Positions 41,160-61,389 of a stretch of DNA of 64,000 bases are shown here, piece by piece; position 1 is the stretch's first letter; the number at the start of each line of letters is the position of its first letter. Source of the DNA: a bacterium. Lineage in GTDB: Bacteria; Patescibacteriota; Minisyncoccia; Minisyncoccales; CG1-02-41-26. The notes beneath the pieces were generated by a model. That model saw nothing but the letters and a program-made list of their open reading frames with translations, had not been told where the DNA came from and did no database searches. The position numbers and the translations under genes were made by a program. The stretch is from NCBI GenBank assembly GCA_030603395.1, contig JAUVXX010000002.1, forward strand, positions 15,807 to 79,806, in the 5' to 3' direction.

Positions 41160-43160
41160 TTAGTTTTTGGGGCGGGAAGTAAAGTACCATTCCAGCACCT
41201 CCTTAGCGACTTTTTGGGCGGCGATTCTGGTACCCTCTACTTTTTCAATAACCAGAGTCAAAACAATTTCAGGTGATTGATAGGGAGCAAAAACTGTTAT
41301 CCAGTTATGGTAAATTTCTTTTTTAGGATAAATTTGAGCCGTCCCGGTTTTAGCAGCAGCAGTAACCGGCAAAGAACTTAAAGAAAAAGCGGAACCTCCA
41401 GGAGAACTCACTGCCTGCAGCATTCCCTCTCTAATAACCTCAAGGGATGCAGAGCTGATGAAATTCTCCCTTATTAGTTCCTCAGCCAGTACTTCTTTCT
41501 GGCTTCCGTCGGCCGCCAAAATTTCTTTGGCTATTTTTGGTTTAAAAATTTTGCCTCCATTGGCCAAGGCCTGAAAGGCAGTAGCCATTTGCAAGGGGGT
41601 AGCCAAAAAATAACCTTGGCCAATTGAAATATTATAAGTATCTCCCAAGTACCACTTTTGCTGCTCGGGTCCCTCAAAGTAATTTTCCTTCCAATCGGGG
41701 TCGGGAACCCTGCCCTCAACCTCTCCGGGTAAATCTACGCCGGTTCTCTCTCCTAAGCCGAACAGACGCAGATATTTTGCTATATTTTCAATTCCTAATC
41801 CTTCAAATTCTTTTGGCAAATTGGGATTAAAAAATTCACTGGCTGTTGACGGCGAAACATACCCCCCGCCAATCATGTAAAAGAAGGGGTTAACTGATTC
41901 GGCTATGGCTCTTCTGATATTGGTCCAGCCATGGAACATCCAATCAGGAAAACATTCGGGCTCTCCCGTATATTTATGCTCAAGACAAAGTTCCAAAGGA
42001 CAATAAAGTTGGGTTGATTCTGAAACTATGTTTTCTTCCAAGGCCGCCAGCCCTATCAAAGGTTTAATCATTGAGCCGGTTGGATAACGACCGCCAATGA
42101 CCCGATTAAGTTGAGGATTTCTTTCATCCTGATTGAGTTCTTGAAGTTCGTCTTGGGTAATCCCTCTGGCAAAAAGATTATTGTTAAAGGAAGGAAGGGA
42201 AACTAAAGCTAAAATTTCACCGTTTTGAGGGTTGATGGCGACCGCCGCCCCGATTTGAGCGTCAACCTCCTCAAAAACTTTCTCCAAACTCTCCACAATC
42301 TTTTTTTGTAAAGAAAAATCCAAACTTAAGACTAAACTGCTTCCCGACTGAGGACTCTCTTTTATTTTTCTTGAAATCTCCCTCCCCTGCACATCTCTTT
42401 CTATTTCAAGCACTCCTTTCCTTTCAGCTAAAACTTCCTCATACCATCTTTCCACCCCCTCCTTGCCCACATAATCCTCCATTTCATAAGCTTCTTTGAG
42501 CTCTCTAAGGTCTTTAGCAGAAATCTTACCCAGGTAGCCTAAAAGATGGCTTAAACTCTCTTCCTCTTCATATAATCTTTGGGTTCTCTTTTTTACTCTA
42601 ATTCCCGGTAAGTCGTCAATTTTTGTTTCAAGTAAAATTAAATCTCGATGAGAAAGATTTTCCCAAAGCATAATAAGGTCTTGGGAACTCTGGGTAATTT
42701 TTCTTTCCAAATTCTGAAGGTCTTCTCCTAAAATTTCAGCAACTTCCCTTAGAACCTCTTCCCTTGCTGACTGGTTTTGAGAGAGCTCGGATTTTTCAGC
42801 AAAAAGGTCAAACCTGACTTCATTAAAAACAAGTTGCTGCATATTTCTGTCATAAATCACCCCTCTCTCTGCCCGGATACTCAAGGTGATGAATTTATTT
42901 TTCAAAGCCAATGCCTGGTATTTTTGATGCTCCCTGAATTGTAAGTTGGAACTGAAAACCAGGAATGAAATCAAAAGAAAAACTCCCAAGAGAAAGAAAA
43001 TAAAAAAGGCTTTTTTTCTCAAGGGAAGCTCAATTTTTCTTTCTGAAACTTCGTCTTCTTTTTCTTGCTTTTTCAGGAGATCGTCTAAAAAAATTTCTTC
43101 AAATTCAAGCTCTCGATTTGAATTAACTTTTTTCTTTTTACCTTTGAAGGAAAATAGCAT
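41160..43160 (-). CDS. mrdA: penicillin-binding protein 2 (elongasome transpeptidase)
   Basis: N-terminal TM helix; SMIKP (SxxK), SVN (SxN) and KTGTAQ (KTG). Follows mreC-mreD. Confidence 0.85.
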   Translation of the reverse strand: MLFSFKGKKKKVNSNRELEFEEIFLDDLLKKQEKEDEVSERKIELPLRKKAFFIFFLLGVFLLISFLVFSSNLQFREHQKYQALALKNKFITLSIRAERGVIYDRNMQQLVFNEVRFDLFAEKSELSQNQSAREEVLREVAEILGEDLQNLERKITQSSQDLIMLWENLSHRDLILLETKIDDLPGIRVKKRTQRLYEEEESLSHLLGYLGKISAKDLRELKEAYEMEDYVGKEGVERWYEEVLAERKGVLEIERDVQGREISRKIKESPQSGSSLVLSLDFSLQKKIVESLEKVFEEVDAQIGAAVAINPQNGEILALVSLPSFNNNLFARGITQDELQELNQDERNPQLNRVIGGRYPTGSMIKPLIGLAALEENIVSESTQLYCPLELCLEHKYTGEPECFPDWMFHGWTNIRRAIAESVNPFFYMIGGGYVSPSTASEFFNPNLPKEFEGLGIENIAKYLRLFGLGERTGVDLPGEVEGRVPDPDWKENYFEGPEQQKWYLGDTYNISIGQGYFLATPLQMATAFQALANGGKIFKPKIAKEILAADGSQKEVLAEELIRENFISSASLEVIREGMLQAVSSPGGSAFSLSSLPVTAAAKTGTAQIYPKKEIYHNWITVFAPYQSPEIVLTLVIEKVEGTRIAAQKVAKEVLEWYFTSRPKN

Positions 43161-44695: not shown

Positions 44696-44722
44696 AATGA
44701 TGATGATTGATTACCGGCTAAG
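44696..44722 (-). other. 3' strand of the ~27-bp 23S processing stem (pairs with 48093-48120)
   Basis: CUUAGCCGGUAAUCAAUCAUCAUCAUU is complementary to AAUGAUGAUGCAUUGAUUACCGGCUAAG with one bulge. This is RNase III-type precursor stem geometry. Confidence 0.7.
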
Positions 44723-44993
44723 AAGTTTGATCGATTAGTATCCCTCAGCTCAAGGCGTTACCGCCCTTCCACTTGGGACCTATCAAGGTCGTCATCTTCG
44801 ACCGATCTCAACGAGTCCTAATCTTGAGGTGGGCTTCGCACTTAGATGCTTTCAGTGCTTATCCCGAACCAACTTAGCTACCCAGCAATGCTCCTGGTGG
44901 AACAGCTGGTAGACCAGAGGTTAACTCCGGAAGGTCCTCTCGTACTATTCCGGACTCCTCTCAAGACTCAGCGCCTGCGGTAGATAGGGACCA

Positions 44994-45028
<35 letters not shown>

Positions 45029-45659
45029 ACTTTTTAATTGGCGAACAGCCAAACCCTTGGGACCTTTTCCAGCCCCAGGATAAGTTGAGCCGACATCGAG
45101 GTGTCGAACAGGATCGTCGATGGGAACTCTCGGATCCTACTAACCTGTTATCCCCGGGGTAACTTTTATCTGATTATCTCCCCCAATTCTATGAATTGAG
45201 GTCGGTTCACTAAGTTCTGGTTTCCCAACTGCGCGACATATCCGTCTTGCAGTAAAGTCGGCTTTTCCCTTTGCGGTATCACTCCGATTTCCATCCGGAG
45301 TTAGCCGACCTTTAAACGCCTCCGTTACCTTTTAGGAGGCAAGCGCCCCACTTAAACTACCCATTAGACACTGTTTCCACCGATAAGGCAGATTAGAACC
45401 AAGATTTCAGAAGGGTGGTGTTTCATTGGTGACTCCGCCCCGACCGAAATCGGGACATCAACATCTCCCACCTACACTACGCATCCAAAGTCAAAGCTCA
45501 ATATCTAACTATAGTAAAGCTCCCGGGGTCTTTCCGTCTAGCCGCAGGTAAAGGGCATCTTCACCCCTATTGCATTTTCACCGGGCACCTGGTTGAGACA
45601 GTCCCCTAGTCGTGAAGCCTTTCATGCAGGCCGTAACTTACACGGCAAGGGATTACGCT

Positions 45660-45912
45660 CAATAATGTTAAATCCTTAATGGAATTCTCTTTGTCGCCAA
45701 AGAGCTCGGACCATATCTTCACCGTCTTAATTTGTAATTATTGACGGGTCCGGCGTATGGCCTCTGAGGATTCCGAGTACATAACTTTTTATGTGCTCGG
45801 TCTTTCCTGCTGATTGTCTGCACCGGACGCTTTTTTACTCTTATCAGAGTAGCGCCGGATACACCAGAGTTTCCAGCATATAGCCGGATTTTATTAAAGC
45901 AACGCGCTGATT
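45660..45912 (-). mobile_element. ORF-less candidate group I intron in 23S rDNA at E. coli site L1931
   Basis: The exon alignment breaks between ..GUUAAAGU and AGCGUAAUCC (E. coli ..CCUAAGGU|AGCGAAAUUCC). The 5' exon ends in U and the insert ends in G. The internal guide GCUUUAA pairs with exon UUAAAGU (P1 with a U.G pair). A GNRA-capped hairpin CUCUUUG-GCGA-CAAAGAG is present. Confidence 0.65.
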
Positions 45913-47665
45913 ACTTTAACACGGTCAGAGTTACCGCGGACGTTCACTGGAAGCTTAACTCGGTTAGCCAGTCGATATATCGATATCGAGAGACCGCCAA
46001 GCTTGACACTCCAGTACTGGTCAGGCCTCAGCCCCTATACCTCCTATTACTAGTTAAGCAGGGACCTATGTTTTTGATAAACAGTCGCTAGGGGGACGTT
46101 TGTTGCAGCCCCTGAGCCCTTGCGGGCCGGGGCAGTCCTTATTGCGAACTTACGGACGCTTTTTTGCCGAGTTCCTTAACCAGGTTTCACCCGTTCACCT
46201 TGGCACTCTTACGCCAGCCTACCTGTGTCGGTTTACGGTACGGACCCTCCACCCTTTTAAATTTCTCCGAGGCTTTTCCAGGCAGAGTGCTCAACTGAGT
46301 TCATCCCGCCGAGGCGGGACTTCCCGCCAGCTCTTGGAAATCCTTAAGCTAGCGACGAAAATCCAATAATTCGCCCAGCCTACTACTCTGCGTCACCTCA
46401 TTGAAAAAGGTGAAAGGGGGCCGGAATATTAACCGGCTGTCCATCCCTCCCTACAACTTCTTGTAGGGGGTTAGGGCCGCCTAACCCTTGGCTGATGGTC
46501 ATTGCCAAGGAAACCTTAGGCTTTCGGTGGGCAGGACTTTCACCTGCCTTGTGGTTACTCATGCCAACATTCTCACTCCCTATCGCTCCACCCCAACGTT
46601 GCCGTGGGGCTTCAGTGCAATAGAGACGCTCCCCTACCACTCGACATATCGAAATATCGAAATATCGAATCCACATCTTCGGTACCGAGCTTGAGCCCCC
46701 TAAATCTTCGGCGCAGACCCTCTCAGGAAGTAAGCTGTTACGCACTTTTTAAAGGATAGCTGCTTCTAAGCTAACCTTCTCACTATTAAAGAGAATCCAC
46801 CTCCTTTAAACACTTAGCTCGAATTTTGGGACCTTAGATGGTGATCTGGGCTGTTTCCCTTTTGACTACGGAACTTAGCTTCCGCAGTCTGACTCCTCGT
46901 TTAAATTTTCCAGTATTCGGAGTTTAGTTGGAGTACCTGGATAAAATCCAAGGTATTCCATCTAGTGCTCTACCCCTGGAAAAGAATTTGACGAGGGCTA
47001 GCCCTAAAGCTATTTCGGGGAGAACCAGCTATTACCAAGCTCGTTTAGCTTTTTACTTCTTACCACAGTTCATCCCAGAGCGTTGAACGGCTCAAGGGTT
47101 CGGGCCTCCTCCGGCGTTTCCGCTGGATTCACCCTGACCATGGCAAGCTCGCTTGGCTTCGGGTCTCGAGCATATAGCCAAAAACGCGCTTTTAACGCTC
47201 GCTTTCGCTATGCTTTCGGGGCAAAACCCCTTAAACAAGCTATGTGCTCGAACTCGTTGGCTCGTTCTGCAAAAAGCACGCCGTCACCAAAACAGATAAC
47301 AAGTTATCTGCTTCGGCTCCGACTCTTTGTAAGCAAATGGTTTCAGGTTCTATTTCACCGCCCTCACCGGGCTACTTTTCACCTTTCCCTCACGGCACTA
47401 GTTCACTATAGGTGAGCGGGTAGTATTTAGCTTTAGCTGATAGTTCAGCCTGCTTCCCTCAGGGCTTTCATTTCCTGAGGTACTCAAGAAAGACAGCAAG
47501 GAGCATGAAGTCGTTTTCGTCTACGGGACTATCACCCTCTATGGTTGTCCTTTCCAGGACATTTAACTAACGAAACTTCACCAAAATGCTCTCCCTCAGT
47601 AAGTCCAGACCTTTCTGCAAAAACAGAAAGAGCTGGGCTCCCGACGCTATCCCCTTACAACCCCC

Positions 47666-47827
47666 ATCGCTCGCACCTCGCTATGCTCGGCACTCGCTCC
47701 AGTTTATAGTGTATAGTGTATAGTTTGTAGAAAATTGAAAACAAATTCTACTCACTACCAACTACTCACTACTCACTAATCACTACTCACTAAAGTTTGT
47801 GTCGAACGCAGTGAGGCACGAACGATA
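47666..47827 (-). repeat. 162-nt expansion segment in 23S domain I built from tandem heptamers
   Basis: It replaces a ~17-nt hairpin between ..CUCAAACC (bacterial consensus ..CCCAAACC) and GGGGUUGUA... It contains six TACTCAC units (47750-47791, plus strand) and about 3.5 TATAGTG units (47705-47730). The base stem is AUCGUUCGUGCCUC / GAGGUGCGAGCGAU. Confidence 0.7.
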
Positions 47828-48263
47828 GGTTTGAGCTTTTCCCTTTTCGCTCGCCGCTACTTGGGGAATAAACATTTTTGTCTTTTCCTCCGGGTACTGA
47901 GATGTTTCACTTTCCCGGGTTCGCTGCCCCGTCACTCGACAGGGCTGTTCGCGCTTATCACGCGAACGGGTTTCCCCATTCGGAAATCCCCGGATCAAAG
48001 GTTGCTAAGCACCTCCCCGAGGCTTATCGCAGCCACGCCACGTCCTTCATCGCCTCCCGCTCCCGAGGCATCCACCATCTGCTCATAATAATCTTAGCCG
48101 GTAATCAATGCATCATCATTTATTAATTTTTAAAGAACATCATTCATCTCTGGAATTTAAAAACTGCTTCTCAGAGAAGCAGCAAAAACCTATAAACTAA
48201 AACTATGGCTTTTAGCCGCTTCCTTCATATAATATCTTTCCAAAATTTCTCATACTGTTTGTA

Positions 48264-48356: not shown

Positions 48357-49034
48357 TTACTCTCCAAATTTGCCTCTGAAATTCTCTAAAACATCTCTGG
48401 CTAAATCTTTTCCTCCAAGACCAAAAGCAATGGAGCAACTGATGACTATCAATGCTACAAATCCTGTCACCAAAATCTGAACAATATCTTTGGCGACGCC
48501 CAGTTGACTCAAGATAGCCAAAATGGCGAAAATCCAAATAGCCCACCTGACAATGCTCCCTATCAACTTAACATAACTTACGTTCATCTTGCCCACAATC
48601 GCTCTGACCAGCTTTTCTGAAATATCAGCAATAATTACTGCCACCACAAAGATAGCTGCTGCCACCACTAAGTTCGGCAGCCAACCAACAATAGCTCTCA
48701 AAAAGATGGCAAATTGGGTAAGCCCCAGAATCTCAACGGCAGCCAACAGAAAGACAATTATCAGAACCCATTTAACAATCCCTCCGATAAAATCCGACAT
48801 TTTCATCCGGAAATCTGCCTTCTGGAGGGTTTCGTCCCACTTGCTTTTTTCAAAAATGCGGTCAACCCTTAACTTCTTTAGAATTTCAGCCACCAGCTTG
48901 CCAATCCAAACGGATATAAACCAACCGACCACGAAAATAATTATGGCTCCTACTATTTTGGGAATAAAGCCCAGGAACCCTTGCCAGAGACTTTGCAAAG
49001 CTTGCCACGTAACGGTTGTCCAATCTTGAACCAT
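48357..49034 (-). CDS. membrane protein with repeated conserved-TM-helix modules (MscS N-terminal-like)
   Basis: 225 aa, 5-6 TM segments, with repeated IVGAIIIFVVGW / VVAAAIFVVAVIIA type helices. Confidence 0.55.
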   Translation of the reverse strand: MVQDWTTVTWQALQSLWQGFLGFIPKIVGAIIIFVVGWFISVWIGKLVAEILKKLRVDRIFEKSKWDETLQKADFRMKMSDFIGGIVKWVLIIVFLLAAVEILGLTQFAIFLRAIVGWLPNLVVAAAIFVVAVIIADISEKLVRAIVGKMNVSYVKLIGSIVRWAIWIFAILAILSQLGVAKDIVQILVTGFVALIVISCSIAFGLGGKDLARDVLENFRGKFGE

Positions 49035-49097
49035 ATTAATTATTTAAAAAATATGTTCTTGTGCGACCTTTAAGACTGTACGATAAAATATTATTTC

Positions 49098-49124
49098 ATT
49101 ATACCCCAAAAGAACCCCTGTCAA
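49098..49124 (-). promoter_or_regulatory. promoter-like TTGACA-15-TATAAT overlapping the 17-bp repeated motif
   Basis: -35 at 49119-49124 and -10 at 49098-49103 (minus strand). The 15-nt spacer is short. Confidence 0.4.
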
Positions 49125-49190
49125 CTGTGGATAACTTCAAGCGAGCAAAACGAGCGAGAACCCCGCCGTTCTTCAGAAGGAGCTGGGTGT

Positions 49191-49793
49191 TCACATTACT
49201 ATTTTATTTTTAATTAAAAACTCTTTTACAATTTCAAAGATTCTCTGATGACCTTTTGAATTCGGATGTAAACCATCATCCAGCATTGAGTTAGTTAGTT
49301 TATCATATATTAAGATTACTGGAATGTTATTTTTCTTTGCGATTCGATGTATGATTGCATTGTATTCCCTAATATTTTTGTTGTAGTAGTACTCTGTCCT
49401 GTGCCAGGGAATTGGACACACTTTTGACTCGTCAACACGTAATATTTCTGCAAAGAGCAGTTTATCTGTATGCTTCTTAGCTAATTTGATAAGGCTCGCT
49501 ACGTTCTTCTCAAAGCGTTCTGGAGGCACAAAATAATCATTTGTAGTTGTAGTATGACGAGAATCATTTGTTCCAAGATGAAAGATAACAACTTCTGGTT
49601 CTATTGATTCTAAATCTGTTTTTACTCGCTTTACAATATCATCAGTTGAATCTCCTGAAACACAGCGATTGTAAACAGCAATTTCATTGTCCTTGTTGAA
49701 GAAGAAAACTTTTAGCCGATTTACCCAACCACCCATTTTATAGTCATAATATCCTGCACTTATACTACCTCCAAAAACTAAGATTCGTGCCAT
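49191..49793 (-). CDS. SGNH/GDSL-family hydrolase
   Basis: Block I FGGSISAG, block III GTNDS, block V DGLHPN. Confidence 0.75.
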   Translation of the reverse strand: MARILVFGGSISAGYYDYKMGGWVNRLKVFFFNKDNEIAVYNRCVSGDSTDDIVKRVKTDLESIEPEVVIFHLGTNDSRHTTTTNDYFVPPERFEKNVASLIKLAKKHTDKLLFAEILRVDESKVCPIPWHRTEYYYNKNIREYNAIIHRIAKKNNIPVILIYDKLTNSMLDDGLHPNSKGHQRIFEIVKEFLIKNKIVM

Positions 49794-50289: not shown

Positions 50290-50611
50290 ATATTTCATTA
50301 CATTATCATAATTCTTTCCCTTTGAAAAGTCCCACAAACGAAAAACTCCCCTAAGGGAGTTTTCCTTTACTATTTTTGGTTTCTCTAAGTTGCTCCGAAA
50401 GTCGAGTTTTGAGGTGATTCGACCAACACCCTGAAAGTTAAAGAGAGAATTCTCACTCTTCAACTTTCGTCAACCAAATAAAAAAAGAAATGTTCCATCG
50501 ACAGCTTCCGCTACCGATGCCTTGTTACGACTTCGTCCTGATTACTGAGCCCACCTTAGGTCCCCAAAAGGAGCACTTCGGGTGTTCCCAGCTTTCCTGA
50601 CGTGACGGGCG

Positions 50612-51452
50612 AATGTTCTCTGGAAACTCAGAGTTGACGTTCCCACCGTACGTGCGGATTTCCCGCATACGGCGAGCTCTAATGCATTTTTTGTTTAAGC
50701 TTATACAAGCTTCTTAATCCTACTTTTGCAAGATGTCTCCCTTTGCCAATTTCTCTCATTATCTCAGAAAAAATTTTAAAATCTTTTCTCCTTGAAACTA
50801 ATCTTGGCCGATGTTTCTTAAAAAATGGAATAATAATCTTCTCTATATCTCTTCGATTTCCCACTTCATAACGATAACAATCTTTATGATTCTTCCGGCT
50901 ATCTTTCTGAAAATATACATTTCCACAACCAAAAGATTTTTTCAACCGATAAAGTATTTCTTTATCGGTTTCTTGAAGTCTCAAGTAAAATCTCGGTTCG
51001 GCTCTTACTCTTCGTTTAACTTTCTTCTTTTCATCGGGATTACGAATATAAACTGTAAAACTTCCTTCGCCATCTACTAGTCCTAAAATATATTCAGGGT
51101 TTAACATAAATACATTAGAGTGGATCCTTCCCCGCTAAACTTTTTATTTAGCCGGTACTATGATCCAGCTGACTTCTGACGCTGCGTCAGTTTCATTATA
51201 CAGCGTCAGACCTCCCCGGGTCAATACATAAACTATTCCCAACATCCCAAATTGAGCCAAGAAACGACCTTCCCCACGCTCACCACCCATTCATGGGTCG
51301 GCCAGCTCTTAAAAATTTGGGCTACTGTTTGCTTTCGGACCCTCCGCCATTTGTGTCACCACAAATGACTGTCCTTCAGCTTTACTCCGCTAACAGTCTG
51401 CGGAGAAAGAGATTTTAACTCTTTAGCTTATGTATCTGCCGGGCGCGTTTAT
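50612..51452 (-). mobile_element. intervening sequence in 16S rDNA carrying a homing-endonuclease gene
   Basis: The conserved string GUAC(A/U)CAC|CGCCCGUC (E. coli 1392-1407) is split. The flanks resume exactly, with about 840 bp between them. Boundaries are accurate to within a few nt. Confidence 0.7.
50679..51107 (-). CDS. LAGLIDADG homing endonuclease (single-motif type)
   Basis: 142 aa with YILGLVDGEGSF near the N-terminus. Located inside the 16S insertion. Confidence 0.85.
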   Translation of the reverse strand: MLNPEYILGLVDGEGSFTVYIRNPDEKKKVKRRVRAEPRFYLRLQETDKEILYRLKKSFGCGNVYFQKDSRKNHKDCYRYEVGNRRDIEKIIIPFFKKHRPRLVSRRKDFKIFSEIMREIGKGRHLAKVGLRSLYKLKQKMH

Positions 51453-52904
51453 CTGTGAGTACAAGAGACAGTGACTTATTCATCGCGGCGTAGCTGATCC
51501 GCGATTACTAGCGATTCCAGCTTCACGAGGTCGAGTTGCAGACCCCGATCCGGACTGAGACTGGCTTTGATGGGATTAGCTCCACGTTACCGTTTGGCAA
51601 CCCATTGTACCAGCCATTGTACCACGTGTGCTGCCCAGGGCATAAGGGCCATGCGGATTTGGCGTCGTCCTCGCCTTCCTCCCAGTTATCCCGGGCAGTC
51701 CCCTATAACAAATAAAACATAGGGTGAGGGTTACGCAGGTTTCCCCATTTAAGGGAGCATTTCACAACACCTACTGACGACAACCATGCAGCACCTGTAC
51801 CAAGTGCCTTGCGGACTCCCAAGTTTCCTCGGGATTTCACCTGGCATGTCAAGCCCTGGTAAGGTTCTTCGCTTACCGTCGAATTAAGCCACGTGGTCCA
51901 CCGCTTGTGTGCCTCCCCGTCTATTCCTTTGAGTTTCAACGTTGCCGTCGTACTTCCCAGGCGGGACGCTTAACGGGTTACCTTCGCCGGTGAAAGGGTC
52001 GACACTTCCACCAGCCAGCGTCCATCGTTTACAGCGTGGAATACGCAGGTATCTAATCTGCTTCTCTCCCCACGCTTTCGCCAATCAGCGTCAGGGTCGC
52101 CCCAGCCAGCTGCCTTCGCTTTTGGTGTTCCAGCCGATATCAACGGATTTCACCCCTACACCGGCTGTTCCGCTGGCCTCTAACGCCCTCTAGAAAAGAA
52201 GTATCTCTAGCGCTCTTGAGGTTAAGCCCCAAGAATTTGACCAAAGACTTTCTTAACCGCCTTAAGGCTCTTTACGCCCAATAAATCCGGATAATGCTCG
52301 GGGCACTCGTATTACCGCCGCTGCTGGCACGAGTTTAGCGGCCCCTTATTCAACCGGTACTGTCACCCGAAGGTTCATCCCGGTTAAAAGTTCTTTACAC
52401 CCCGAAGGGCTTCATCGAACACGCGGCGTCGCTCGGTCAGGCTTGCGCCCATTGCCGAAGATTCTCGACTGCTGCCTCCCGTAGGAGTGGGAACCGTGTC
52501 TCAGTTTCCCTGTTGGGGAACACACTCTCATGCCCCCTACCCGTCATCGCCTTGGTGAGCCTTTACCTCACCAACAAGCTGATAGGCCGCGGACTCTTCC
52601 TCAAGCGCCGGAGCTTTACTCTTGCGAGACCATCTAGTATTAGTCCCACTTTCGCGGGATTATGCTAGACTTGAGGGTAAATATCCACGTGTTACTAACC
52701 CGTTCGCCACTGTCCCTCACCAAAATTTGGTGTGGGACCGTACGACTTGCATGCCTTATCCACGCCGCCAGCATTCATCCTGAGCCAGGATCAAACTCTC
52801 AAAAAAAATAGTATTCGAAGCAACTCAGAAAAACCAAAGGTTTTTCTTCGTTAATATTCTGGACACTTTTTAACGGAAACCGAGGACGATTTCCTAAAGC
52901 GCCC

Positions 52905-52977: not shown

Positions 52978-53005
52978 ATTCTACTTACTTAATTCTTAAT
53001 GTCAA
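52978..53005 (-). promoter_or_regulatory. candidate 16S promoter TTGACA-16-TAGAAT
   Basis: -35 at 53000-53005 and -10 at 52978-52983 (minus strand), about 175 nt upstream of the 16S 5' end and immediately after tRNA-Thr. Confidence 0.5.
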
Positions 53006-53373: not shown

Positions 53374-53958
53374 TTAAATCTCGTATCTGGTAAACCCTAC
53401 CACCTCTATCTTCTCCCCGAGCTTTGCCACATACTCCTCAATCAACCCCCCTATCGTTTTTGTCTCATCTTTTACCCAGGGCTGCGACAATAAGGAAATT
53501 TCCTTCTGGTATTTTTCCAGTTTCCCTTCAACAATCTGGTCAATTACTTTTTGGGGTTTACCAGAGTCCTCAAATTGTTTTTGATATATTTTTCTTTCTC
53601 CATCTAAAAAGTCCTGGGGAATATCCTCCATCTTTAAAAATAAAGGTTTCAGGGCTGCTATTTGCAAACAAATCTCGTGGGCTAACTTTTTAAATTCTTC
53701 CCCTTTCGCCACGAAATCGGTTTCGGAATGAATCTCAACCAGCACCCCAAGTTTTGAGCCGGGGTGGACGTAACTGATAACAATCCCCTGGGAGACTTCT
53801 TTTCCTTCCCTTGTCTTGATAATCTCTTTGCCTTTTTCCCTCAAAATCTTCTTTGCCTCCTCAACGTCTCCCTTCGCCTCCTCAAGCGCCCTTTTACAAT
53901 CCATCAGGGAAATCCCGGTGGCTGCTCTAAGTTGTCTTATTTGTTCAATGGAAACCAT
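53374..53958 (-). CDS. tsf: translation elongation factor Ts (short form)
   Basis: UBA-like N-terminus IRQLRAATGISLMDCKRALEEAKGDVEEA. Follows rpsB. Confidence 0.85.
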   Translation of the reverse strand: MVSIEQIRQLRAATGISLMDCKRALEEAKGDVEEAKKILREKGKEIIKTREGKEVSQGIVISYVHPGSKLGVLVEIHSETDFVAKGEEFKKLAHEICLQIAALKPLFLKMEDIPQDFLDGERKIYQKQFEDSGKPQKVIDQIVEGKLEKYQKEISLLSQPWVKDETKTIGGLIEEYVAKLGEKIEVVGFTRYEI

Positions 53959-53961
53959 AAT

Positions 53962-54687
53962 TTATTTCTTCTTGGCTTTTTTAACTACTTTAGCAACCTT
54001 TTCCAAAATATATTTCACCGAAGAGACAGCGTCATCATTGGCGACAATCGGATAATCAACCAGGGTGGGGTCAACATTGGTATCCACTATGGCTATCACC
54101 TTGACCTTCTTCGCTTTGGCTTCCCTTAAAGCAAGTTTATCTTGGTTAATGTCGCAAATAAACACGGCCTGGGGAATTTTTTCCATATCTTTTATTCCCC
54201 CGAATTTCTGCTCGAGTTTTTCCAATTCCCTTTCAATTTTTATTCTTTCTTTTTTGGTATACTTTTCCAATTCCCCTTCTTTCTGCTTTTTTGCCAGGTC
54301 TTTAAAATATTTCATTCTCTCAGTGATTACTTTGAAGTTGGTAAAAGTTCCTCCCAGCCATCTTTCAGTAACATAGGGAAGTTGGCAATCCTGGGCTATC
54401 TTACGGACCAAGCTCTTGAGGGGAATTTTTGTCCCGACCAAAAGCATCTCTCCTTTTTTCTCTAAAATCTCAGCAATAAACTTCAGAGCCTTTATCAACT
54501 GCTGAGCTGTTTTTTGTAAATCAATAATATGGACGGTATTTCTTACCCCCAAAATATTCTCTGCCATCTTGGGATGAAGCTTGGAAATCCGATGGCCCAA
54601 ATGGACCCCAACCTCCATCATTTCTTCAACGTCAATGCCAAATCCATTTTTCTTTGTTTCCTTTTCGGTTTTCTTTACTTTTACCAT
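53962..54687 (-). CDS. rpsB: 30S ribosomal protein S2
   Basis: MEVGVHLGHRISKLHPKM, GTFTNF, IAIVDTNVDP. Confidence 0.9.
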   Translation of the reverse strand: MVKVKKTEKETKKNGFGIDVEEMMEVGVHLGHRISKLHPKMAENILGVRNTVHIIDLQKTAQQLIKALKFIAEILEKKGEMLLVGTKIPLKSLVRKIAQDCQLPYVTERWLGGTFTNFKVITERMKYFKDLAKKQKEGELEKYTKKERIKIERELEKLEQKFGGIKDMEKIPQAVFICDINQDKLALREAKAKKVKVIAIVDTNVDPTLVDYPIVANDDAVSSVKYILEKVAKVVKKAKKK

Positions 54688-54975: not shown

Positions 54976-55707
54976 ATGACGAAAGATTCAGTAATTGTAG
55001 AAATAAGAGCGGGGGCTGGCGGAGAAGAAGCCGCCCTTTTTGCTAAGGACTTGTTTAAGATGTATTCAAAATATGGCGCCTCCCAGGGTTGGCAGCAGAA
55101 GATTTTGGATTCAAGTATTTCAGAAATGGGTGGTTTTAAACAAATCGTCTTCATTCTCAGGAATGGTCAAGTTCTCTCAAAAATGAAATATGAGGGAGGC
55201 GTCCATCGAGTTCAAAGAATACCCAAAACAGAAAAAGCAAACCGAATTCACACCTCAACTGTTTCAGTGGCTGTTTTGCCACAACCCCAGGAAACTGAAA
55301 TCAAGCTCAGTCCTCAGGATATAAGAACGGAAACCTTCAAAGCTTCAGGACCCGGTGGGCAATACGTCAACAAACGCCAAACGGCGATTCGGATTATCCA
55401 TTTGCCAACCGGAATTTCTGTCGCTTCCCAAACCTCAAGAAACCTTGCCGAAAATAAAAAAGCTGCCCTGGAAATTCTAGCGGCTAAACTTTTTGCTAAA
55501 GAACAGGAGGAAATGGAAAGTGCCAGGGCACAAGAAAGGAAATCCCAAATTGGTCGAGCTCAACGAGCCGAAAAAATAAGGACCTACAATTTCCCCCAAG
55601 ACAGAATTACCGACCACCGAATAAAAAAAACCTGGCACAATCTTGAAAAGATAATGGCAGGGAATTTAAGACCAATAATCAAAAAACTGGGCCAATTGCT
55701 TAACTAA
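54976..55707 (+). CDS. prfA: peptide chain release factor 1 lacking the N-terminal domain 1
   Basis: 243 aa. Starts at the equivalent of E. coli RF1 residue ~105 (VEIRAGAGGEEAALFA). Contains a P-x-T codon-recognition tripeptide (IPKTEKANRIHTS) and GGQ (SGPGGQYVNK). Confidence 0.8.
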   Translation: MTKDSVIVEIRAGAGGEEAALFAKDLFKMYSKYGASQGWQQKILDSSISEMGGFKQIVFILRNGQVLSKMKYEGGVHRVQRIPKTEKANRIHTSTVSVAVLPQPQETEIKLSPQDIRTETFKASGPGGQYVNKRQTAIRIIHLPTGISVASQTSRNLAENKKAALEILAAKLFAKEQEEMESARAQERKSQIGRAQRAEKIRTYNFPQDRITDHRIKKTWHNLEKIMAGNLRPIIKKLGQLLN

Positions 55708-55735
55708 GTTAAGCAATTTTTAAGTTATTTCTAAT

Positions 55736-57073
55736 TCATCTTGGGATAAAAATTAACTTCTCACATCTTTCAGTCATGGTACCCCGATCAATAAAAGCTT
55801 GAAGACAATTAGCCCGAGTAATCACTAAATTCCCATAGAATTCTTCGTATTTTGTCCAGGAAGCTCCGGAGAAATATCTCATAGCCGCTAAAAATTCATT
55901 TTGGGCTGCTCCAAGATCTCTTAAATACAAAGCTGAAGCTAAAAAGGCGTGACGGATATCCCAGGGATTGGGAATGCCTTCAATATATCCTTCTAATACT
56001 GGCTGGCGAGCCGCCCAGGTTGAAGGAATAAATTGAGCAGGTCCCATTGCCCCCCCATAACCAAAAGCCATGGGGCAAGAAACTAAAGTATTATAAGGAT
56101 CTCGGTCTAGCTCCTGAGTAATATTTAAGAAAGGAGGTACATCTCGAGTCGGATGCATAATCCGACGTTTTCTATTTTCCGCCGGATCTCGGGGTAAATA
56201 ACACTGGCCAACATTTCTACCCAAAGCTGATTCTTGAGTAATTACGGCTAATAAAAAGGCTGGTTTTATTCCGGTTTGTTTTTGAATCCACTCGGCCAGC
56301 TCCAGGGCCTCACCAAAAGTCGGGGCTTCGGGCACTCCGATTAACTCAAAAATTCTTGCCTCTATTTCTGCTGCTTTTCTTTCGGTTTCTTCTTTCTCTC
56401 GGAGATACTTTTGATATTCCGCTTCGGTTAATTTCAAGAAATATTCTTGGGTTCTCTTGGCACCGGCACTCTCTTGTTTTTGAAGCAGCTGAATGGTTAC
56501 TATGTTCTCTAAATCGTCTTTTTCTTCAACCATAGTGTCCTTCTGGCTTTCTAGAGAACCTTTCAAACCCTTGATATCAGTTAGCAGATCTTGAGTCTCC
56601 AGATTCAGGGCTTCCAGAGCCATTAAATCGTCAAAAAAATCAGCCAAGCTTTCTTCGGCCAAAAATATCTCCAAAAGGCTCCTTTGGTCTTCCTCGTAAC
56701 GAAGTTGTAAAATACTGGCTAAGTTATCTTTAACCTCGTCAATTTTTAAACTTGTTACATCAATTGAAGTTTGAGTATCTCCAATTTGAAAATTAAGGTC
56801 TCCGATGATTAAATTATTTCGATAAGCCTGATAATCTAATTGTTCAATTCTTTTTCCTAAAATATAAATTTCATTCTGGAGGCTTTTTTTCTCCTGCTGG
56901 GTTTTAGTGATATCCTCTTCATATTGGGCGATTTGCTCCTCAAGTTCCCTTAACTCCGCCTCCAGGGCTTCTCTCTCCTCAGTTGAGGTCTGGGCAAAAC
57001 CTCTGAAGTTGGGAAATAAAAAAACAATAATAAGAATACCGAGCAAGACTGTTTTTGTGAAACGAGAAAACAT
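55736..57073 (-). CDS. secreted coiled-coil protein with C-terminal MltB/SLT_2-like lytic transglycosylase domain
   Basis: TM/signal region, ~200-aa coiled coil, then AVITQESALGRN and YGGAMGPAQFIPSTW. The start is placed at MFSRFTK (57073) to avoid overlap with rplY; the track start is 57121. Confidence 0.6.
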   Translation of the reverse strand: MFSRFTKTVLLGILIIVFLFPNFRGFAQTSTEEREALEAELRELEEQIAQYEEDITKTQQEKKSLQNEIYILGKRIEQLDYQAYRNNLIIGDLNFQIGDTQTSIDVTSLKIDEVKDNLASILQLRYEEDQRSLLEIFLAEESLADFFDDLMALEALNLETQDLLTDIKGLKGSLESQKDTMVEEKDDLENIVTIQLLQKQESAGAKRTQEYFLKLTEAEYQKYLREKEETERKAAEIEARIFELIGVPEAPTFGEALELAEWIQKQTGIKPAFLLAVITQESALGRNVGQCYLPRDPAENRKRRIMHPTRDVPPFLNITQELDRDPYNTLVSCPMAFGYGGAMGPAQFIPSTWAARQPVLEGYIEGIPNPWDIRHAFLASALYLRDLGAAQNEFLAAMRYFSGASWTKYEEFYGNLVITRANCLQAFIDRGTMTERCEKLIFIPR

Positions 57074-57083
57074 ATTTGATTTG

Positions 57084-57794
57084 TTATTTGGATTTTCCTT
57101 TCCCTTTTTCTTTCTTTTCACCTCCCTCCTCCCTCTTTTCTTCCTCCGGCTTCTCTCCTTCCGCTGGCTTTTCCTCCCCTGCCTTCTCTTCTTCTTCCTT
57201 CTCGGCTTCTTCAGCTGCTACTTCCTCCTCTTCTTCCTCCGCTGGTGGAACAACATTGGCTACCATTTCATCGGACTCCCTTGAAATCTTAATCCCTTCA
57301 GGAATTTTTAAATCGCCGATTGAAATTCTATCCTCAAACGTTTTAAGACCCCCTACATCCACTTTAATTTCCCGGGGCAGATTCTGGGCCAACCCTTTAA
57401 CCTCCACCACTTGTATCTCCTTGACTAAAGTGCCGTCCAACTCTTTAACGGCCGGAGGTTCCCCCTCAAAAACCAAGGGAATTTCTGCTTCAACTTCTTT
57501 GGTGGAGGAGGGATGATAAAAATCAACATGCAAAAATTTTCCTTCCACCGGGTCTCGAGCTATCTCGTGGATTAAAACCTGCCATTTCTTGGGAGGATTT
57601 TTACCAACCTCTAAGGAAACCAAGGAGCTCTCCCCTGCTTCGCCGTAAACCTTTTCAAATTCTTTCTCGTCAACCTCCAGAGAGAGATTTTTAATTTCCG
57701 GCCCATATAAAACAGCCGGCAATACTTTGTTTTTTCTCAACTCTTTTAATCCCTTGCCAACTTTTTCTCTAATTTTAGCTTTAAGTGAAAGCAT
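57084..57794 (-). CDS. rplY: 50S ribosomal protein L25 / Ctc with Glu/Lys-rich C-terminal tail
   Basis: LRKNKVLPAVLYG N-terminus, two-domain Ctc form, and a ~50-aa acidic low-complexity tail. Confidence 0.8.
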   Translation of the reverse strand: MLSLKAKIREKVGKGLKELRKNKVLPAVLYGPEIKNLSLEVDEKEFEKVYGEAGESSLVSLEVGKNPPKKWQVLIHEIARDPVEGKFLHVDFYHPSSTKEVEAEIPLVFEGEPPAVKELDGTLVKEIQVVEVKGLAQNLPREIKVDVGGLKTFEDRISIGDLKIPEGIKISRESDEMVANVVPPAEEEEEEVAAEEAEKEEEEKAGEEKPAEGEKPEEEKREEGGEKKEKGKGKSK

Positions 57795-57796
57795 AT

Positions 57797-58015
57797 CTAC
57801 TCTTTAATTTTAATAATTTGTACCGGGCAGACCTCAACTGCCTCTGGGGCACAACCAAGGTCTGAAATCTCAAGTGTTTCCACCTCTGTTTTAGAATCCT
57901 CTTGAGAGCCCTTCAAATGGGCTTTTCCCGCTTCAATCATTTCAAAATATTTGGGACACAAACTAACACAACTTCCACAACCAATACATTTTGCTTTTTC
58001 ATGAATTATTTTCAT
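57797..58015 (-). CDS. small 4Fe-4S ferredoxin
   Basis: CIGCGSCVSLCP plus a distal CP (VCPVQI). The start is placed at MKIIHEK, giving a 4-nt overlap with the upstream kinase gene. Confidence 0.65.
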   Translation of the reverse strand: MKIIHEKAKCIGCGSCVSLCPKYFEMIEAGKAHLKGSQEDSKTEVETLEISDLGCAPEAVEVCPVQIIKIKE

Positions 58016-59004
58016 AGTGGTTTTTTGATTACTTTCACTCTCGGCCATGAACCCCAATCATCCTTCTTAAGTAAGCCGTTTTTAGCTCCGACTTTCTGGA
58101 TACAACTCGTCGCATTGGCAGTTGCCAGTTGAATAGCATATCTTATATCATTTTTTTTCAAAAGTCCACTCAAAAACCCGCTTCCATAAGCATCTCCAGC
58201 TCCGGTTTTCTCAAGGGGCAAAATCGAGGGAGCGGGAGCCTCAAAAACATATTTACCATCAGAAACCACTGAACCCTCCCTGCCTCCCGTTACCACCACT
58301 ATGCCTCTGGTAAGAGAATTCAATTTTTTAATCGTCATCTCTTGGTTCTGTGCGGGAATTTTTGTTAAGAGAGCCGCTTCCTCTTTATTTAAGATTAAAA
58401 CGTCAATCTGGGAGAGAATTGGCTTCAAAACTTCTTCTCCCAAATTCAGTTGTCTTGATCCCGGATTGACAGCCACCTTTATCTTGTGCTCTCTGGCAAA
58501 TTTTACCAAGGGTTCAAAAAGCTGAACTGATTTCTCGCTTAAAGGCGCCAGATAAAACCATCTAACCTTGGTCAACTTTTCCCAGGGAATATCTGCCCCG
58601 TCCATAAAATGGCAAGCCCCCCGATAAAGTAAAATCGTTCTTTCCCCAATGGGGGAAGAAAGAATAACCGAGTAGGCGGTGGGGTGTTTTTTATCTTTTT
58701 TGATAAACTGAGTTTCCACCTTAAACTTTTTCAGTTCTTCAATCACTGCTTCTCCTCTTTTATCATTACTCACCTTGCTGCAACAAGCCACCTTGAATCC
58801 TTGATGGCTGAAAGTGCAGGCACTGTTGGTGGCTCCTCCCCCGCTGGCCACCTGCAAATTCTCAATAAATATTTTGGCTCCCAGGGGAAAACAAATAGAT
58901 TTGCTTTCTTGGGCTTCCCTCTCTTCCAAAATTCGATAATTCTCTTTCTTTAATCTCAAGAAACTATCCCTGGTCGCCGACCCAAATGTAACAATGTCGT
59001 ACAT
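58012..59004 (-). CDS. PfkB-family carbohydrate kinase
   Basis: GGGATN and TGAGDAYGSGF motifs of the ribokinase fold. Confidence 0.75.
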   Translation of the reverse strand: MYDIVTFGSATRDSFLRLKKENYRILEEREAQESKSICFPLGAKIFIENLQVASGGGATNSACTFSHQGFKVACCSKVSNDKRGEAVIEELKKFKVETQFIKKDKKHPTAYSVILSSPIGERTILLYRGACHFMDGADIPWEKLTKVRWFYLAPLSEKSVQLFEPLVKFAREHKIKVAVNPGSRQLNLGEEVLKPILSQIDVLILNKEEAALLTKIPAQNQEMTIKKLNSLTRGIVVVTGGREGSVVSDGKYVFEAPAPSILPLEKTGAGDAYGSGFLSGLLKKNDIRYAIQLATANATSCIQKVGAKNGLLKKDDWGSWPRVKVIKKPL

Positions 59005-59005
59005 A

Positions 59006-61384: not shown

Positions 61385-61389
61385 ATAAA

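What the first reader, a model, noticed from the sequence alone, without database searches (positions are those of the whole stretch)
50405..50520. 16S 3' end: no CCUCC after helix 45; an AUCACCUC copy lies 75 nt further 3', just inside the processing stem
I aligned the region by hand to E. coli (AAGUCGUAACAAGG - h45 - GGAUCACCUCCUUA). Helix 45 is intact (CAUCGGUAGC-GGAA-GCUGUCGAUG, 50496-50519), but the next bases read GAACAUUUCUUUUUUU, so the anti-SD core is missing at the canonical place. After a 13-bp internal hairpin (GAAAGUUGAAGAG..CUCUUUAACUUUC), 75 nt downstream, the RNA reads GGUCGAAUCACCUCAAAA (50407-50424). That is a 9 of 10 match to GGAUCACCUC. It lies 11 nt before the 3' strand of a 22-bp leader/trailer stem (52814-52835 pairs with 50378-50399, all Watson-Crick or G.U). 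The 5' strand of that stem lies 13 nt before the mature 5' end, which makes the layout symmetric. Two readings are possible. (a) A ~75-nt insertion (50421-50495) separates h45 from the real anti-SD tail; I am not aware of this insertion site having been described. (b) The tail has degenerated (CCUCC to UUUCU) and the downstream copy is a relic. Either reading fits the scarcity of SD sequences and the leaderless-type promoters in this window.
Basis: partly seen in the sequence, partly recalled or inferred. Interest (0 to 1): 0.65.

Follow-up and report, generated by a model that had tools for sequence, protein, structure and literature searches.

The report
16S rRNA lacking the anti-Shine-Dalgarno tail
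This candidate-phyla-radiation bacterium has lost the CCUCC ribosome-binding-site reader at the end of its 16S rRNA, a trait already reported for part of the Parcubacteria, and the "spare copy" 75 nt downstream is one strand of a conserved pseudoknot in the precursor's trailer.

Summary
Helix 45 is intact. The Rfam SSU model aligns GGAACAUUUCUUUU, without gaps, to GGAUCACCUCCUUU. AUCACCUC lies at 50411-50418, and the 22-bp leader/trailer stem is perfect.

Reading (a), a 75-nt insertion before the real anti-SD, is refuted. About 100 relatives carry the same trailer: hairpin 1 with a GAAUUC loop, then hairpin 2, then the stem strand. Relatives with a canonical GGAUCACCUCCUUUCU tail have this trailer downstream of that tail. 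Both hairpins covary. The CACCU of the "copy" pairs with GGGUG (50427-50431) as an H-type pseudoknot, also supported by covariation.

Reading (b) is half right. The tail has degenerated, but the downstream copy is not a relic.

In this clade, 43 of 73 distinct tails lack even CUCC, and they take dozens of different A/U-rich forms. SD motifs upstream of genes sit at background level. The loss of the anti-SD motif in a Parcubacteria subgroup is published (Tsurumaki et al. 2022, PMC9297842).

Verdict: a new member of a known kind, of low to moderate interest. The trailer hairpin-pseudoknot module matches no Rfam family and is the freshest by-product.

The parts
50483..52806 (-). 16S rRNA gene, interrupted by an insertion of about 843 nt at 50612-51454
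   Evidence: Rfam RF00177, 1271.6 bits for 51405-52806. The 3' exon with h44, h45 and the tail is aligned separately at 50483-50660, 83.8 bits.
50496..50519 (-). Helix 45, CAUCGGUAGC-GGAA-GCUGUCGAUG, intact
   Evidence: Read directly. All 10 pairs are aligned to the model's h45.
50481..50495 (-). 16S 3' tail GAACAUUUCUUUUUU. UUUCU (50486-50490) replaces the anti-SD core CCUCC.
   Evidence: Gap-free covariance-model alignment to GAUCACCUCCUUU. The tail is predicted unstructured. It is identical in the close relative L213. L217 has GAUCAUUUCUUUAC.
50469..50475 (-). GGUUGAC, the window's version of the clade-wide GUGUCGA(U/C) motif 5' of hairpin 1
   Evidence: Columns 7-13 of alignment A1; G, U, C and G are invariant or nearly so.
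50433..50468 (-). Trailer hairpin 1: a 13-bp stem with a GAGAAUUC apical part, where GAAUUC is invariant in the clade
   Evidence: Fold. 95.7% of cells are paired, and 9 of 15 pairs show changes on both sides in 45 relatives.
50427..50431 (-). GGGUG, the 5' strand of pseudoknot stem S1
   Evidence: Pairs with CACCU at 50412-50416. Four aligned pairs are 94.2% paired against 81.7% in shuffles (0 of 500 reach it). There are 29 double-change cells against 6.2 expected.
50400..50424 (-). Trailer hairpin 2 (pseudoknot stem S2), GGUCGA / UCGACU, with a 13-nt loop AUCACCUCAAAAC
   Evidence: 98.1% of cells are paired, and 6 of 6 pairs have compensatory changes.
50411..50418 (-). AUCACCUC, the 'anti-SD copy'. 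It consists of loop L2 (AU), pseudoknot strand CACCU (50412-50416) and the first base of the A-rich L3.
   Evidence: The close relative L217 has AUCAUCUC paired with AGGUG.
50385..50478 (-). The whole trailer module as matched by covariance model R1, built from 45 relatives
   Evidence: 80.9 bits, E = 4.6e-19, the only hit in the window. No Rfam family matches this stretch.
50378..50399 (-). Trailer (3') strand of the pre-16S processing stem. It abuts the last base of the pseudoknot.
   Evidence: 22 of 22 pairs with 52814-52835. The homologous GGGACAACUNNAAGAAAC is conserved in relatives.
52814..52835 (-). Leader (5') strand of the processing stem. It ends 7 nt before the Rfam-defined 16S start.
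50342..50363 (-). Terminator-like G+C hairpin followed by a U run, directly after the processing stem
   Evidence: Sequence. The scan lists the same palindrome on the + strand only. Relatives L020, L041 and L213 have an equivalent hairpin.
52978..53005 (-). Promoter-like TTGACA-16-TAGAAT upstream of the 16S leader
   Evidence: 11 of 12 consensus matches.

Best explanation
The window comes from a Parcubacteria-type CPR/Patescibacteria bacterium. Its nearest named relatives by EF-Ts are Gribaldobacteria, at about 66% identity.

Its 16S rRNA ends, directly after an intact helix 45, in GAACAUUUCUUUU. The GA(U/A)CA part of the tail is kept. The three cytosines C1535, C1536 and C1539 of the anti-SD core have decayed to U, so no SD:anti-SD helix can form. 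Initiation must therefore be SD-independent, on leaderless mRNAs or on A/U-rich unstructured leaders. This step is inferred from the lack of SD enrichment.

The roughly 95 nt that follow are not part of an interrupted 16S. They form a conserved pre-rRNA trailer:
- a GUCGA motif;
- hairpin 1 with an invariant GAAUUC loop;
- a compact H-type pseudoknot, with S1 GGGUG:CACCU, L1 UU, S2 GGUCGA:UCGACU, L2 AU and L3 CAAAAC;
- the 3' strand of a 22-bp leader/trailer stem, stacked directly on the pseudoknot. This stem is the presumed RNase III substrate (inferred).

The AUCACCUC 'copy' looks like an anti-SD only because it must be complementary to a purine-rich, SD-like GGGUG tract.

In relatives that keep CCUCC, the tail is predicted to pair with a second SD-like tract (GGGGUG) just before the GUCGA motif. 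In the window both partners of that helix have decayed.
For: - The covariance-model alignment places UUUCU at 1535-1539 with no gap.
- A tail-unbiased scan of GTDB genomes for the CPR-type h45 gives 102 of 117 tails with CCTCC. The exceptions cluster in the lineage that shares the window's trailer.
- A tail-unbiased metagenome scan for h45 plus hairpin 1 gives 92 loci. Pooled, there are 73 distinct tails: 17 with CCTCC, 13 with CTCC and 43 with neither, in more than 30 different A/U-rich versions.
- Per position, A1531, C1533 and A1534 are kept in 93-100% of tails. C1535, C1536 and C1539 are kept in 10% or fewer of the degenerate tails.
- Canonical-tail relatives carry the same trailer downstream.
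- Covariation supports hairpin 1 (95.7% paired), hairpin 2 (98.1% paired) and the pseudoknot (94.2% paired, 0 of 500 shuffles reach it; slid controls 34-67%).
- SD motifs are at background level: window 7 of 56 against 8.3%; degenerate-tail clade 22 of 250 against 6.6%. Other CPR with CCTCC show 66 of 470 against 6.3%.
- An independent assembly of a close relative (L213, EF-Ts 92% identical) has the identical tail, which rules out an assembly error.
- Published: the anti-SD motif was detected in only 48% of Parcubacteria 16S genes, and the loss is concentrated in one subgroup (PMC9297842).
- Published: RNase III, RNase J and PNPase are retained in at least 90% of CPR genomes (PMC12641178).
Against: - No RNA-end data exist, so the mature 3' end is inferred from homology only.
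- U1537 and C1538 are retained in 69% of degenerate tails, and CAU(U/A)UCUU is shared by the window, L213, L217 and L215. Some residual constraint on the tail cannot be excluded.
- AGAA is modestly over-represented upstream of starts (19 against 7.5 expected), and purines peak at -11/-10. This is also expected from A-richness and from -10 boxes of leaderless genes.
- My ORF starts are crude (first ATG after a stop).
- The sample of canonical-tail clade members is small (56 ORFs).
- Two genes (26283-26759 and 40544-41014) do carry strong SD-like sites.
Confidence: 0.85

Rival explanations
1. Reading (a): a roughly 75-nt insertion or intervening sequence (50421-50495) splits h45 from the true anti-SD tail AUCACCUC. 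After excision, or by looping out, this tail would function in SD pairing.
For: AUCACCUC matches GGAUCACCUC at 9 of 10 positions and lies just inside the processing stem. This organism's rRNA genes do carry other insertions.
Against: - Relatives with a canonical tail directly after h45 have the homologous hairpins further downstream.
- The GAACA after h45 aligns to GAUCA of the normal tail.
- CACCU covaries as a pseudoknot strand, and the loop is not anti-SD-like in most relatives.
- The sequence continues CAAAAC, not CCUUU.
- There is no SD enrichment.
Confidence: 0.02
2. The degenerate tail is a retuned anti-SD. AUUUCUUU would pair with A/G-rich AAAGAAAU-type motifs upstream of start codons, forming a weak, co-evolved SD system.
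For: - CAU(U/A)UCUU is shared by the window, L213, L217 and L215.
- U1537 and C1538 are kept in 69% of degenerate tails.
- AGAA and AAGAA are mildly over-represented at -20..-3 (19 against 7.5 and 9 against 3.1), with a purine peak near -10.
Against: - Tails differ widely between sub-lineages (AUAUCAUU, AAUUCUUU, AAAACUAA, CUACAUUU and others), with no sign of matching motif changes.
- The enriched k-mers are dominated by TAAA and AAAT, and the complement GAAAT occurs only twice.
- A-U duplexes of this length are very weak.
- The enrichment does not survive correction for the A-rich composition of upstream regions.
Confidence: 0.07
3. The hairpin-pseudoknot module is not removed. It would stay on the mature SSU rRNA as a 3' extension with a role in initiation or subunit joining in this clade.
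For: - The module is unusually conserved for a spacer. The GAAUUC loop is invariant, and UU and AAA are nearly invariant, across relatives whose 16S is only 74-80% identical.
- Structured 3' ends resist PNPase, the 3' exonuclease that CPR retain (PMC12641178).
Against: - The module also occurs in members with a canonical anti-SD, where an extension would bury the tail.
- It lies inside a long RNase III-type stem, as trailers of other bacteria do.
- No expression data are available.
Confidence: 0.05
4. Artefact: the locus is a mis-assembled or decaying rRNA pseudogene.
For: It has an unusual tail, introns, and protein genes inside the operon.
Against: - The full-length SSU, LSU and 5S models score 1271, 2355 and 78 bits.
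- h44 and h45 are intact.
- L213 has the same tail and trailer in an independent assembly.
- The same architecture is seen in about 100 contigs.
Confidence: 0.01

Closest known systems
Parcubacteria subgroup lacking the anti-SD motif (Tsurumaki, Saito, Tomita, Kanai 2022, RNA 28:1041; PMC9297842)
   Same: A CPR/Parcubacteria 16S gene in which CCUCCU is absent from the 3' end. The paper infers that the SD helix does not form. rRNA genes carry insertions.
   Different: The text I read reports a motif detection rate (48%) and an overlap with uL1 loss; I read only keyword passages, not the whole paper. Those passages do not describe what the tails have become, the retention of GA(U/A)CA, the background-level SD usage, or the conserved trailer structure. 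uL1 status cannot be checked in this window.
Bacteroidetes/Bacteroidia SD-independent initiation (from my own knowledge: e.g. Jha et al. 2021, NAR, sequestration of the ASD in the Flavobacterium ribosome)
   Same: Genes largely lack SD sites. Initiation relies on A-rich, unstructured upstream regions.
   Different: Bacteroidetes keep the CCUCC sequence and hide it in a protein pocket. Here the sequence itself has decayed.
Rare anti-SD-less bacteria catalogued by Lim et al. 2012 and Amin et al. 2018 (cited through PMC9297842)
   Same: Loss or mutation of the 16S 3' anti-SD core in reduced genomes.
   Different: Those are isolated cases. Here it is a large free-standing radiation with dozens of different tail versions.
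E. coli / B. subtilis pre-16S leader-trailer stem cut by RNase III (textbook knowledge)
   Same: A long duplex between the 5' leader and 3' trailer brackets the 16S. In relatives with CCUCC, the anti-SD is paired within the precursor.
   Different: About 83 nt of conserved, structured trailer (hairpin plus H-type pseudoknot) lie between the 16S end and the stem, against 33 mostly unstructured nt in E. coli. The stem starts only 7 nt from the 5' end.
Classical H-type pseudoknots (e.g. viral frameshift signals, SAM-II and preQ1-II riboswitch folds; textbook knowledge)
   Same: The same topology and loop lengths: a 2-nt L1, an A-rich 6-nt L3 and stems of 5 and 6 bp.
   Different: It sits in an rRNA trailer. 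No ligand or frameshifting context exists, there is no Rfam match, and the function is unknown.

Membership tests
Bacterial SSU rRNA with canonical 3' tail (Rfam RF00177) | Helix 45 of 10 bp with a GGAA loop | tested here: met
   50496-50519 is aligned pair for pair.
Bacterial SSU rRNA with canonical 3' tail (Rfam RF00177) | GAUCA (1530-1534) directly after h45 | tested here: met
   GAACA at 50495-50491, with one U-to-A change that is common in the clade (18 of 71 tails).
Bacterial SSU rRNA with canonical 3' tail (Rfam RF00177) | CCUCC anti-SD core at 1535-1539 | tested here: not met
   UUUCU at 50490-50486. There is no CACCTCC on the rRNA strand near the 16S end.
Anti-SD-less Parcubacteria subgroup (PMC9297842) | Affiliation with CPR/Parcubacteria | tested here: met
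   The h45 variant and trailer are shared with Nealson-, Portnoy-, Azam- and Spechtbacteria MAGs. EF-Ts homologues are named Patescibacteria or Gribaldobacteria.
Anti-SD-less Parcubacteria subgroup (PMC9297842) | CCUCCU motif absent from the 16S 3' end | tested here: met
Anti-SD-less Parcubacteria subgroup (PMC9297842) | Co-occurring loss of ribosomal protein uL1 | not testable with these tools
   No rplK-rplA region was found among the 50 of 56 ORFs scanned against Pfam. The whole genome is not available.
   Relatives with h45-GGAUCACCUCC still have the homologous hairpins and loop downstream.
   The loop consensus is RCCYUAAA and it covaries with the upstream G tract.
H-type RNA pseudoknot | A hairpin loop pairs with a single strand outside the hairpin, supported by compensatory changes | tested here: met
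   Pair 53-72 shows GC 19, AU 17 and GU 7. Four pairs are 94.2% paired, and 0 of 500 shuffles reach this.
H-type RNA pseudoknot | The fold is formed in vitro or in vivo | not testable with these tools
   Needs chemical probing.
RNase III processing stem of pre-16S rRNA | A leader/trailer duplex of 20 bp or more bracketing the 16S | tested here: met
   22 of 22 pairs, extendable to about 25.
RNase III processing stem of pre-16S rRNA | Cleavage by RNase III | not testable with these tools
   rnc is retained in at least 90% of CPR genomes according to PMC12641178. No rnc match appeared among the 50 of 56 window ORFs scanned.
Bacteroidetes-type SD-independent initiation | Anti-SD sequence conserved but functionally masked | tested here: not met
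   The sequence itself is lost.

The most novel reading that the evidence does not exclude
The covariation-supported hairpin 1 (invariant, self-complementary GAAUUC loop) plus H-type pseudoknot is not merely a disposable spacer. It would be a previously undescribed, clade-specific functional RNA. In this reading it either stays on the mature small-subunit rRNA as a 3' extension or acts as a maturation checkpoint that replaced the ancestral anti-SD-sequestering helix. It would thus take part in how these SD-less ribosomes are finished or start translation.
Probability: 0.07. Interest if true: 0.7.

Novelty: new member of a known kind. Interest (0 to 1): 0.3.

Why it matters
The SD:anti-SD interaction is usually treated as a near-universal bacterial feature. 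A large radiation in which the rRNA partner has freely decayed is a natural experiment on SD-independent initiation. It also matters for gene callers, which assume an RBS model, and for 16S 3'-end annotation in CPR genomes.

The lineage-level loss is already published, so this window mainly adds anatomy:
- which tail positions stay (GA(U/A)CA, and often U1537 and C1538) and which go (C1535, C1536, C1539);
- SD usage is at background even in clade members that still have CCUCC, though that sample is small;
- the precursor helix that sequesters the anti-SD is lost together with it;
- a conserved trailer hairpin-pseudoknot explains the deceptive AUCACCUC.

The case is also a useful caution. A pyrimidine-rich strand paired to an SD-like tract will mimic an anti-SD.

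Tried and rejected
- Looked for the window's source record by exact protein look-up of uS2, TyrRS and the 100%-identical EF-Ts cluster. None is on record.
- Looked for close relatives through EF-Ts synteny. L213 is too close to be informative: its tail is identical and its trailer nearly so. L214, L218 and L219 are cut before the 16S 3' end.
- Tested for a retuned SD complementary to the tail. Nothing emerged beyond A/T-richness.
- The minimum-free-energy fold of the trailer pairs GGUUGA (50475-50470) with UCGACU instead of forming hairpin 2. I rejected this because the upstream GUCGA motif stays constant in relatives whose hairpin-2 arms change (for example GGUCUC/GAGACU in L020 and L041), whereas hairpin 2 itself shows 6 of 6 compensatory pairs.
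- Considered that the 3' arm of hairpin 1 (CUCUUUAAC) is a boxA antitermination site. The match is window-specific: relatives have GUUUUUAAC, CAUCUUAAC or AUUUUCAAC. A better boxA-like GUUCUUUCAAA sits in the leader. I did not pursue this.
- An Rfam E-value scan of 50300-50660 gave only sub-threshold chance hits for the trailer.
- uL1 status could not be tested. Pfam scans of 50 of the 56 window ORFs (six ORFs at 41160-43160 and 54976-63817 were not scanned) found uS2, EF-Ts and bL9 but no rplKA cluster.

Full report
**Context.** The window carries an rRNA region on the minus strand:
- 16S (52806 down to about 50483);
- two tRNAs (50289-50216 and 50206-50135);
- 23S (48099-44714, with a group I intron);
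- 5S (44664-44556).

The 16S hit reported by cmscan stops at 51405. This is because the gene is interrupted by an insertion of about 843 nt that holds a LAGLIDADG ORF. The true 3' exon, with h44, h45 and the tail, aligns separately at 50660-50483.

**Checking the observation.**
- Helix 45 is CAUCGGUAGC-GGAA-GCUGUCGAUG at 50519-50496.
- The next bases are GAACAUUUCUUUUUUU.
- A 13-bp hairpin lies at 50468-50456 / 50445-50433.
- AUCACCUC lies at 50418-50411.
- The leader strand 52835-52814 pairs with 50399-50378 at 22 of 22 positions.

The test comes out in favour of the hand alignment. RF00177 aligns GGAACAUUUCUUUU to GGAUCACCUCCUUU with no gap and maximal posterior probability. UUUCU therefore occupies positions 1535-1539.

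Two small corrections are needed. The Rfam 5' end is 52806, so the leader strand ends 7 nt before the 16S, not 13. And ATCACCTC occurs four times in the window, against 1.3 expected.

**What the downstream segment is.** I scanned one genome per GTDB species for the window's h45 type, with the tail left free (GTCGTAACAAGGCATC-N6-GGAA-N6-GATGG). This gave 120 loci, almost all Patescibacteria/CPR. Of 117 readable tails, 102 have CCTCC, usually as GGATCACCTCCTTTCTAGGGAG.

A minority share the window's trailer. They are labelled Nealson-, Portnoy-, Azam- and Spechtbacteria, plus some unnamed Patescibacteria. An alignment shows one common architecture:
- the tail;
- a variable U-rich stretch;
- a GUGUCGA motif;
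- hairpin 1 with a GAAUUC loop;
- GGGUGUU;
- hairpin 2;
- GGGACAACUNNAAGAAAC, which is the 3' strand of the processing stem.

The decisive point is that L044 and L060 have the canonical GGAUCACCUCCUUUCU directly after h45 and the same hairpins further downstream.

A second scan, of metagenome contigs, required h45 plus hairpin 1 and again left the tail free. It gave 92 more loci with the same layout. The 75 nt are therefore ancestral trailer, not an insertion between h45 and an anti-SD. Reading (a) is refuted.

**Why the trailer contains AUCACCUC.** I aligned 45 distinct relatives (A1) and counted base pairs.
- Hairpin 1 is 95.7% paired, and 9 of 15 pairs change on both sides.
- Hairpin 2 is 98.1% paired, and all 6 pairs are compensatory.
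- The loop of hairpin 2 is complementary to the G-rich tract just 5' of the hairpin. The window has GGGUG (50431-50427) with CACCU (50416-50412). L119 has GGGAG with CUCCC. L137 has GGAGAG with CUCUCC. L020 has AAGC with GCUU. L172 has AGAAG with CUUCU. L131 has GGGUA with UACCC.
- Counted on its own, this four-pair helix is 94.2% paired against 81.7% in column shuffles (0 of 500 reach it). It has 29 double-change cells against 6.2 expected, and slid registers give only 34-67%.

The geometry is that of a textbook H-type pseudoknot: S1 of 5 bp, L1 UU, S2 of 6 bp, L2 AU, and an A-rich L3 (CAAAAC).

AUCACCUC is thus L2, plus the S1 strand, plus the first base of L3. It resembles an anti-SD because it has to pair with an SD-like purine tract. 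In relatives the same loop reads AGCCCUAAAU, GAGCUUUAAAU, AACCUCAAAG or UCUCCCUAAAA, so it is not a relic of the 16S tail.

A covariance model of the module (R1) finds exactly one copy in the window (50385-50478, 80.9 bits). Among the first 99 GTDB loci it finds the module only in the clade members. No Rfam family matches the stretch.

The last base of the pseudoknot (50400) abuts the first base of the processing-stem strand (50399).

**What happened to the tail.** Within the trailer-defined clade there are 73 distinct sequences. Seventeen keep CCTCC, 13 keep CTCC (mostly AUCUCC), and 43 keep neither.

The degenerate tails come in more than 30 versions. Examples are AACAUAUCAUUU, AACAAUUCUUUU, AAUAAAUCUUUU, AUCAAUUUAUUU, AUCAAAACUA, AUCAUAACAUAC and AAAUUUUUUCAA.

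Position by position:
- A1531, C1533 and A1534 are kept in 93-100% of tails.
- C1535, C1536 and C1539 survive in 10% or fewer of the degenerate tails and are replaced by U or A.
- U1537 and C1538 survive in 69%.
- G almost never appears (once, at 1539, in 71 tails).

This is the pattern expected from relaxed selection on the anti-SD core under A+T pressure, with the GA(U/A)CA part still constrained.

The window's closest relatives were found through EF-Ts synteny.
- L213 (EF-Ts 92% identical) has the identical tail.
- L217 (71%) has GAUCAUUUCUUUAC.
- L215 and L216 (77%) have GAUCAUAUCUUAC.

L217 keeps the pseudoknot through AGGUG with CAUCU.

In relatives with a canonical tail, CACCUC is predicted to pair with a GGGGUG tract just before the GUCGA motif. 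In the window both partners are gone, and the tail is predicted to be unstructured.

**Link to translation.** I used a simple ORF call: at least 100 aa, starting at the first ATG. GGAG or GAGG lies at -18..-4 in:
- 7 of 56 window genes, against 8.3% of random 15-nt windows;
- 22 of 250 genes (8.8% against 6.6%) in degenerate-tail clade loci;
- 3 of 56 genes (5.4% against 5.8%) in canonical-tail clade loci;
- 66 of 470 genes (14.0% against 6.3%) in other CPR loci with CCTCC.

SD usage is therefore at background throughout the clade and low in CPR generally. This fits decay of an anti-SD that was no longer needed. The order of events is an inference, and the canonical-tail sample is small.

Upstream regions are A/T-rich (TAAA and AAAT are the most enriched words). 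Several first genes have TANAAT boxes ending 7-9 nt before the ATG, as expected for leaderless mRNAs; I judged this by eye only. No motif complementary to the new tail stands out.

**Comparison with what is known.** Tsurumaki et al. (2022, RNA 28:1041; PMC9297842) report that the anti-SD motif CCTCCT was detected in only 48% of Parcubacteria 16S genes. The loss is concentrated in a subgroup that overlaps the uL1-lacking lineages. They infer that SD helices do not form there. They cite Lim et al. 2012 and Amin et al. 2018 for the rarity of such loss elsewhere.

The central phenomenon is therefore already known, and the window is a further member. Two searches of the held library for Shine-Dalgarno or anti-SD together with CPR names found no other treatment.

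A 2025 survey finds that CPR genomes retain RNase III, RNase J and PNPase (PMC12641178). This fits an RNase III stem, and it fits the need for an endonucleolytic cut upstream of a structured trailer. That last step is inferred, not shown.

I found no description of the trailer hairpin-pseudoknot module.

**Verdict.**
- Observation: confirmed.
- Reading (a): refuted.
- Reading (b): supported for the tail, not for the 'relic'.
- Best explanation (confidence 0.85): an anti-SD-less 16S of a Parcubacteria lineage with SD-independent initiation, followed by a conserved, structured pre-rRNA trailer whose pseudoknot strand mimics an anti-SD.
- Novelty: a new member of a known kind.
- Interest: 0.3. 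The undescribed trailer module is the part most worth a follow-up.

Noticed in passing
window 50612-51454 (-): An insertion of about 843 nt splits the 16S between E. coli-equivalent positions 1399 and 1400, in the decoding-centre region (boundaries judged by eye). It holds a LAGLIDADG_1 ORF (50679-51107, E = 1e-16). It gives sub-threshold group II intron hits: D1-D4 at 51124-51205 (32.9 bits) and domain V at 50644-50674 (28.9 bits). The 5' end is not GUGYG.
   Followed up: partly
window 44714-48099 (-): The 23S gene is 3386 nt against a 2925-nt model. A group I intron lies at 45687-45943 (67.1 bits), and further inserted sequence is present. The ORF at 46398-46745 inside the gene has no Pfam hit.
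   Followed up: no
window 48357-49793 (-): Two protein genes lie on the rRNA strand between the tRNAs and the 23S: a GDSL lipase/acylhydrolase (49191-49793) and a protein with mechanosensitive-channel TM helices (48357-49034). The same MscS-type gene follows the 16S in relatives L213 and L215-L217, so the 16S and 23S are probably separate transcription units.
   Followed up: partly
window 50342-50363 and 52978-53005 (-): A terminator-like hairpin with a U run lies directly after the processing stem. A near-consensus promoter (TTGACA-16-TAGAAT) lies upstream of the leader. A boxA-like GUUCUUUCAAA is seen by eye at about 52950 in the leader.
   Followed up: partly
window 50446-50451 (-); about 100 related loci: The apical loop of trailer hairpin 1 contains an invariant, self-complementary GAAUUC in every clade member. 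This selection is partly built into my metagenome pattern, but it also holds in the GTDB hits, which were not selected for it. A palindromic loop could form kissing dimers or be a protein site.
   Followed up: no
loci L001-L120, 16S trailers: Most CPR 16S trailers, not only this clade, show a (G)GUCG(A) motif 40-70 nt after the 16S end, usually between two hairpins. Most canonical tails are followed by CUAGGGAG, which is complementary to the anti-SD. This looks like a conserved processing or sequestration layout.
   Followed up: no
L215 / L216, about 9935-10729: A relative (EF-Ts 77% identical) carries a different intron, with a LAGLIDADG_3 ORF, between GAAGUCGU and AACAAGG, a few bases 5' of helix 45.
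   Followed up: partly
window 26283-26759 (-) and 40544-41014 (-): These are the only genes with strong SD-like sites at proper spacing (AAGGAGGAA and GGGGGAGAAA). Both are about 157 aa with no Pfam match. It is odd for a genome whose 16S cannot read them; chance or recent transfer could explain it.
   Followed up: no
window 24480-24929 (-), 53374-54687 (-): Ribosomal protein bL9, which some CPR lack, is present. uS2 and EF-Ts lie immediately upstream of the 16S unit, in a gene order conserved in relatives (PPDK-PfkB-Fer4-bL25-SLT-RF-bL31-uS2-EF-Ts-16S).
   Followed up: partly
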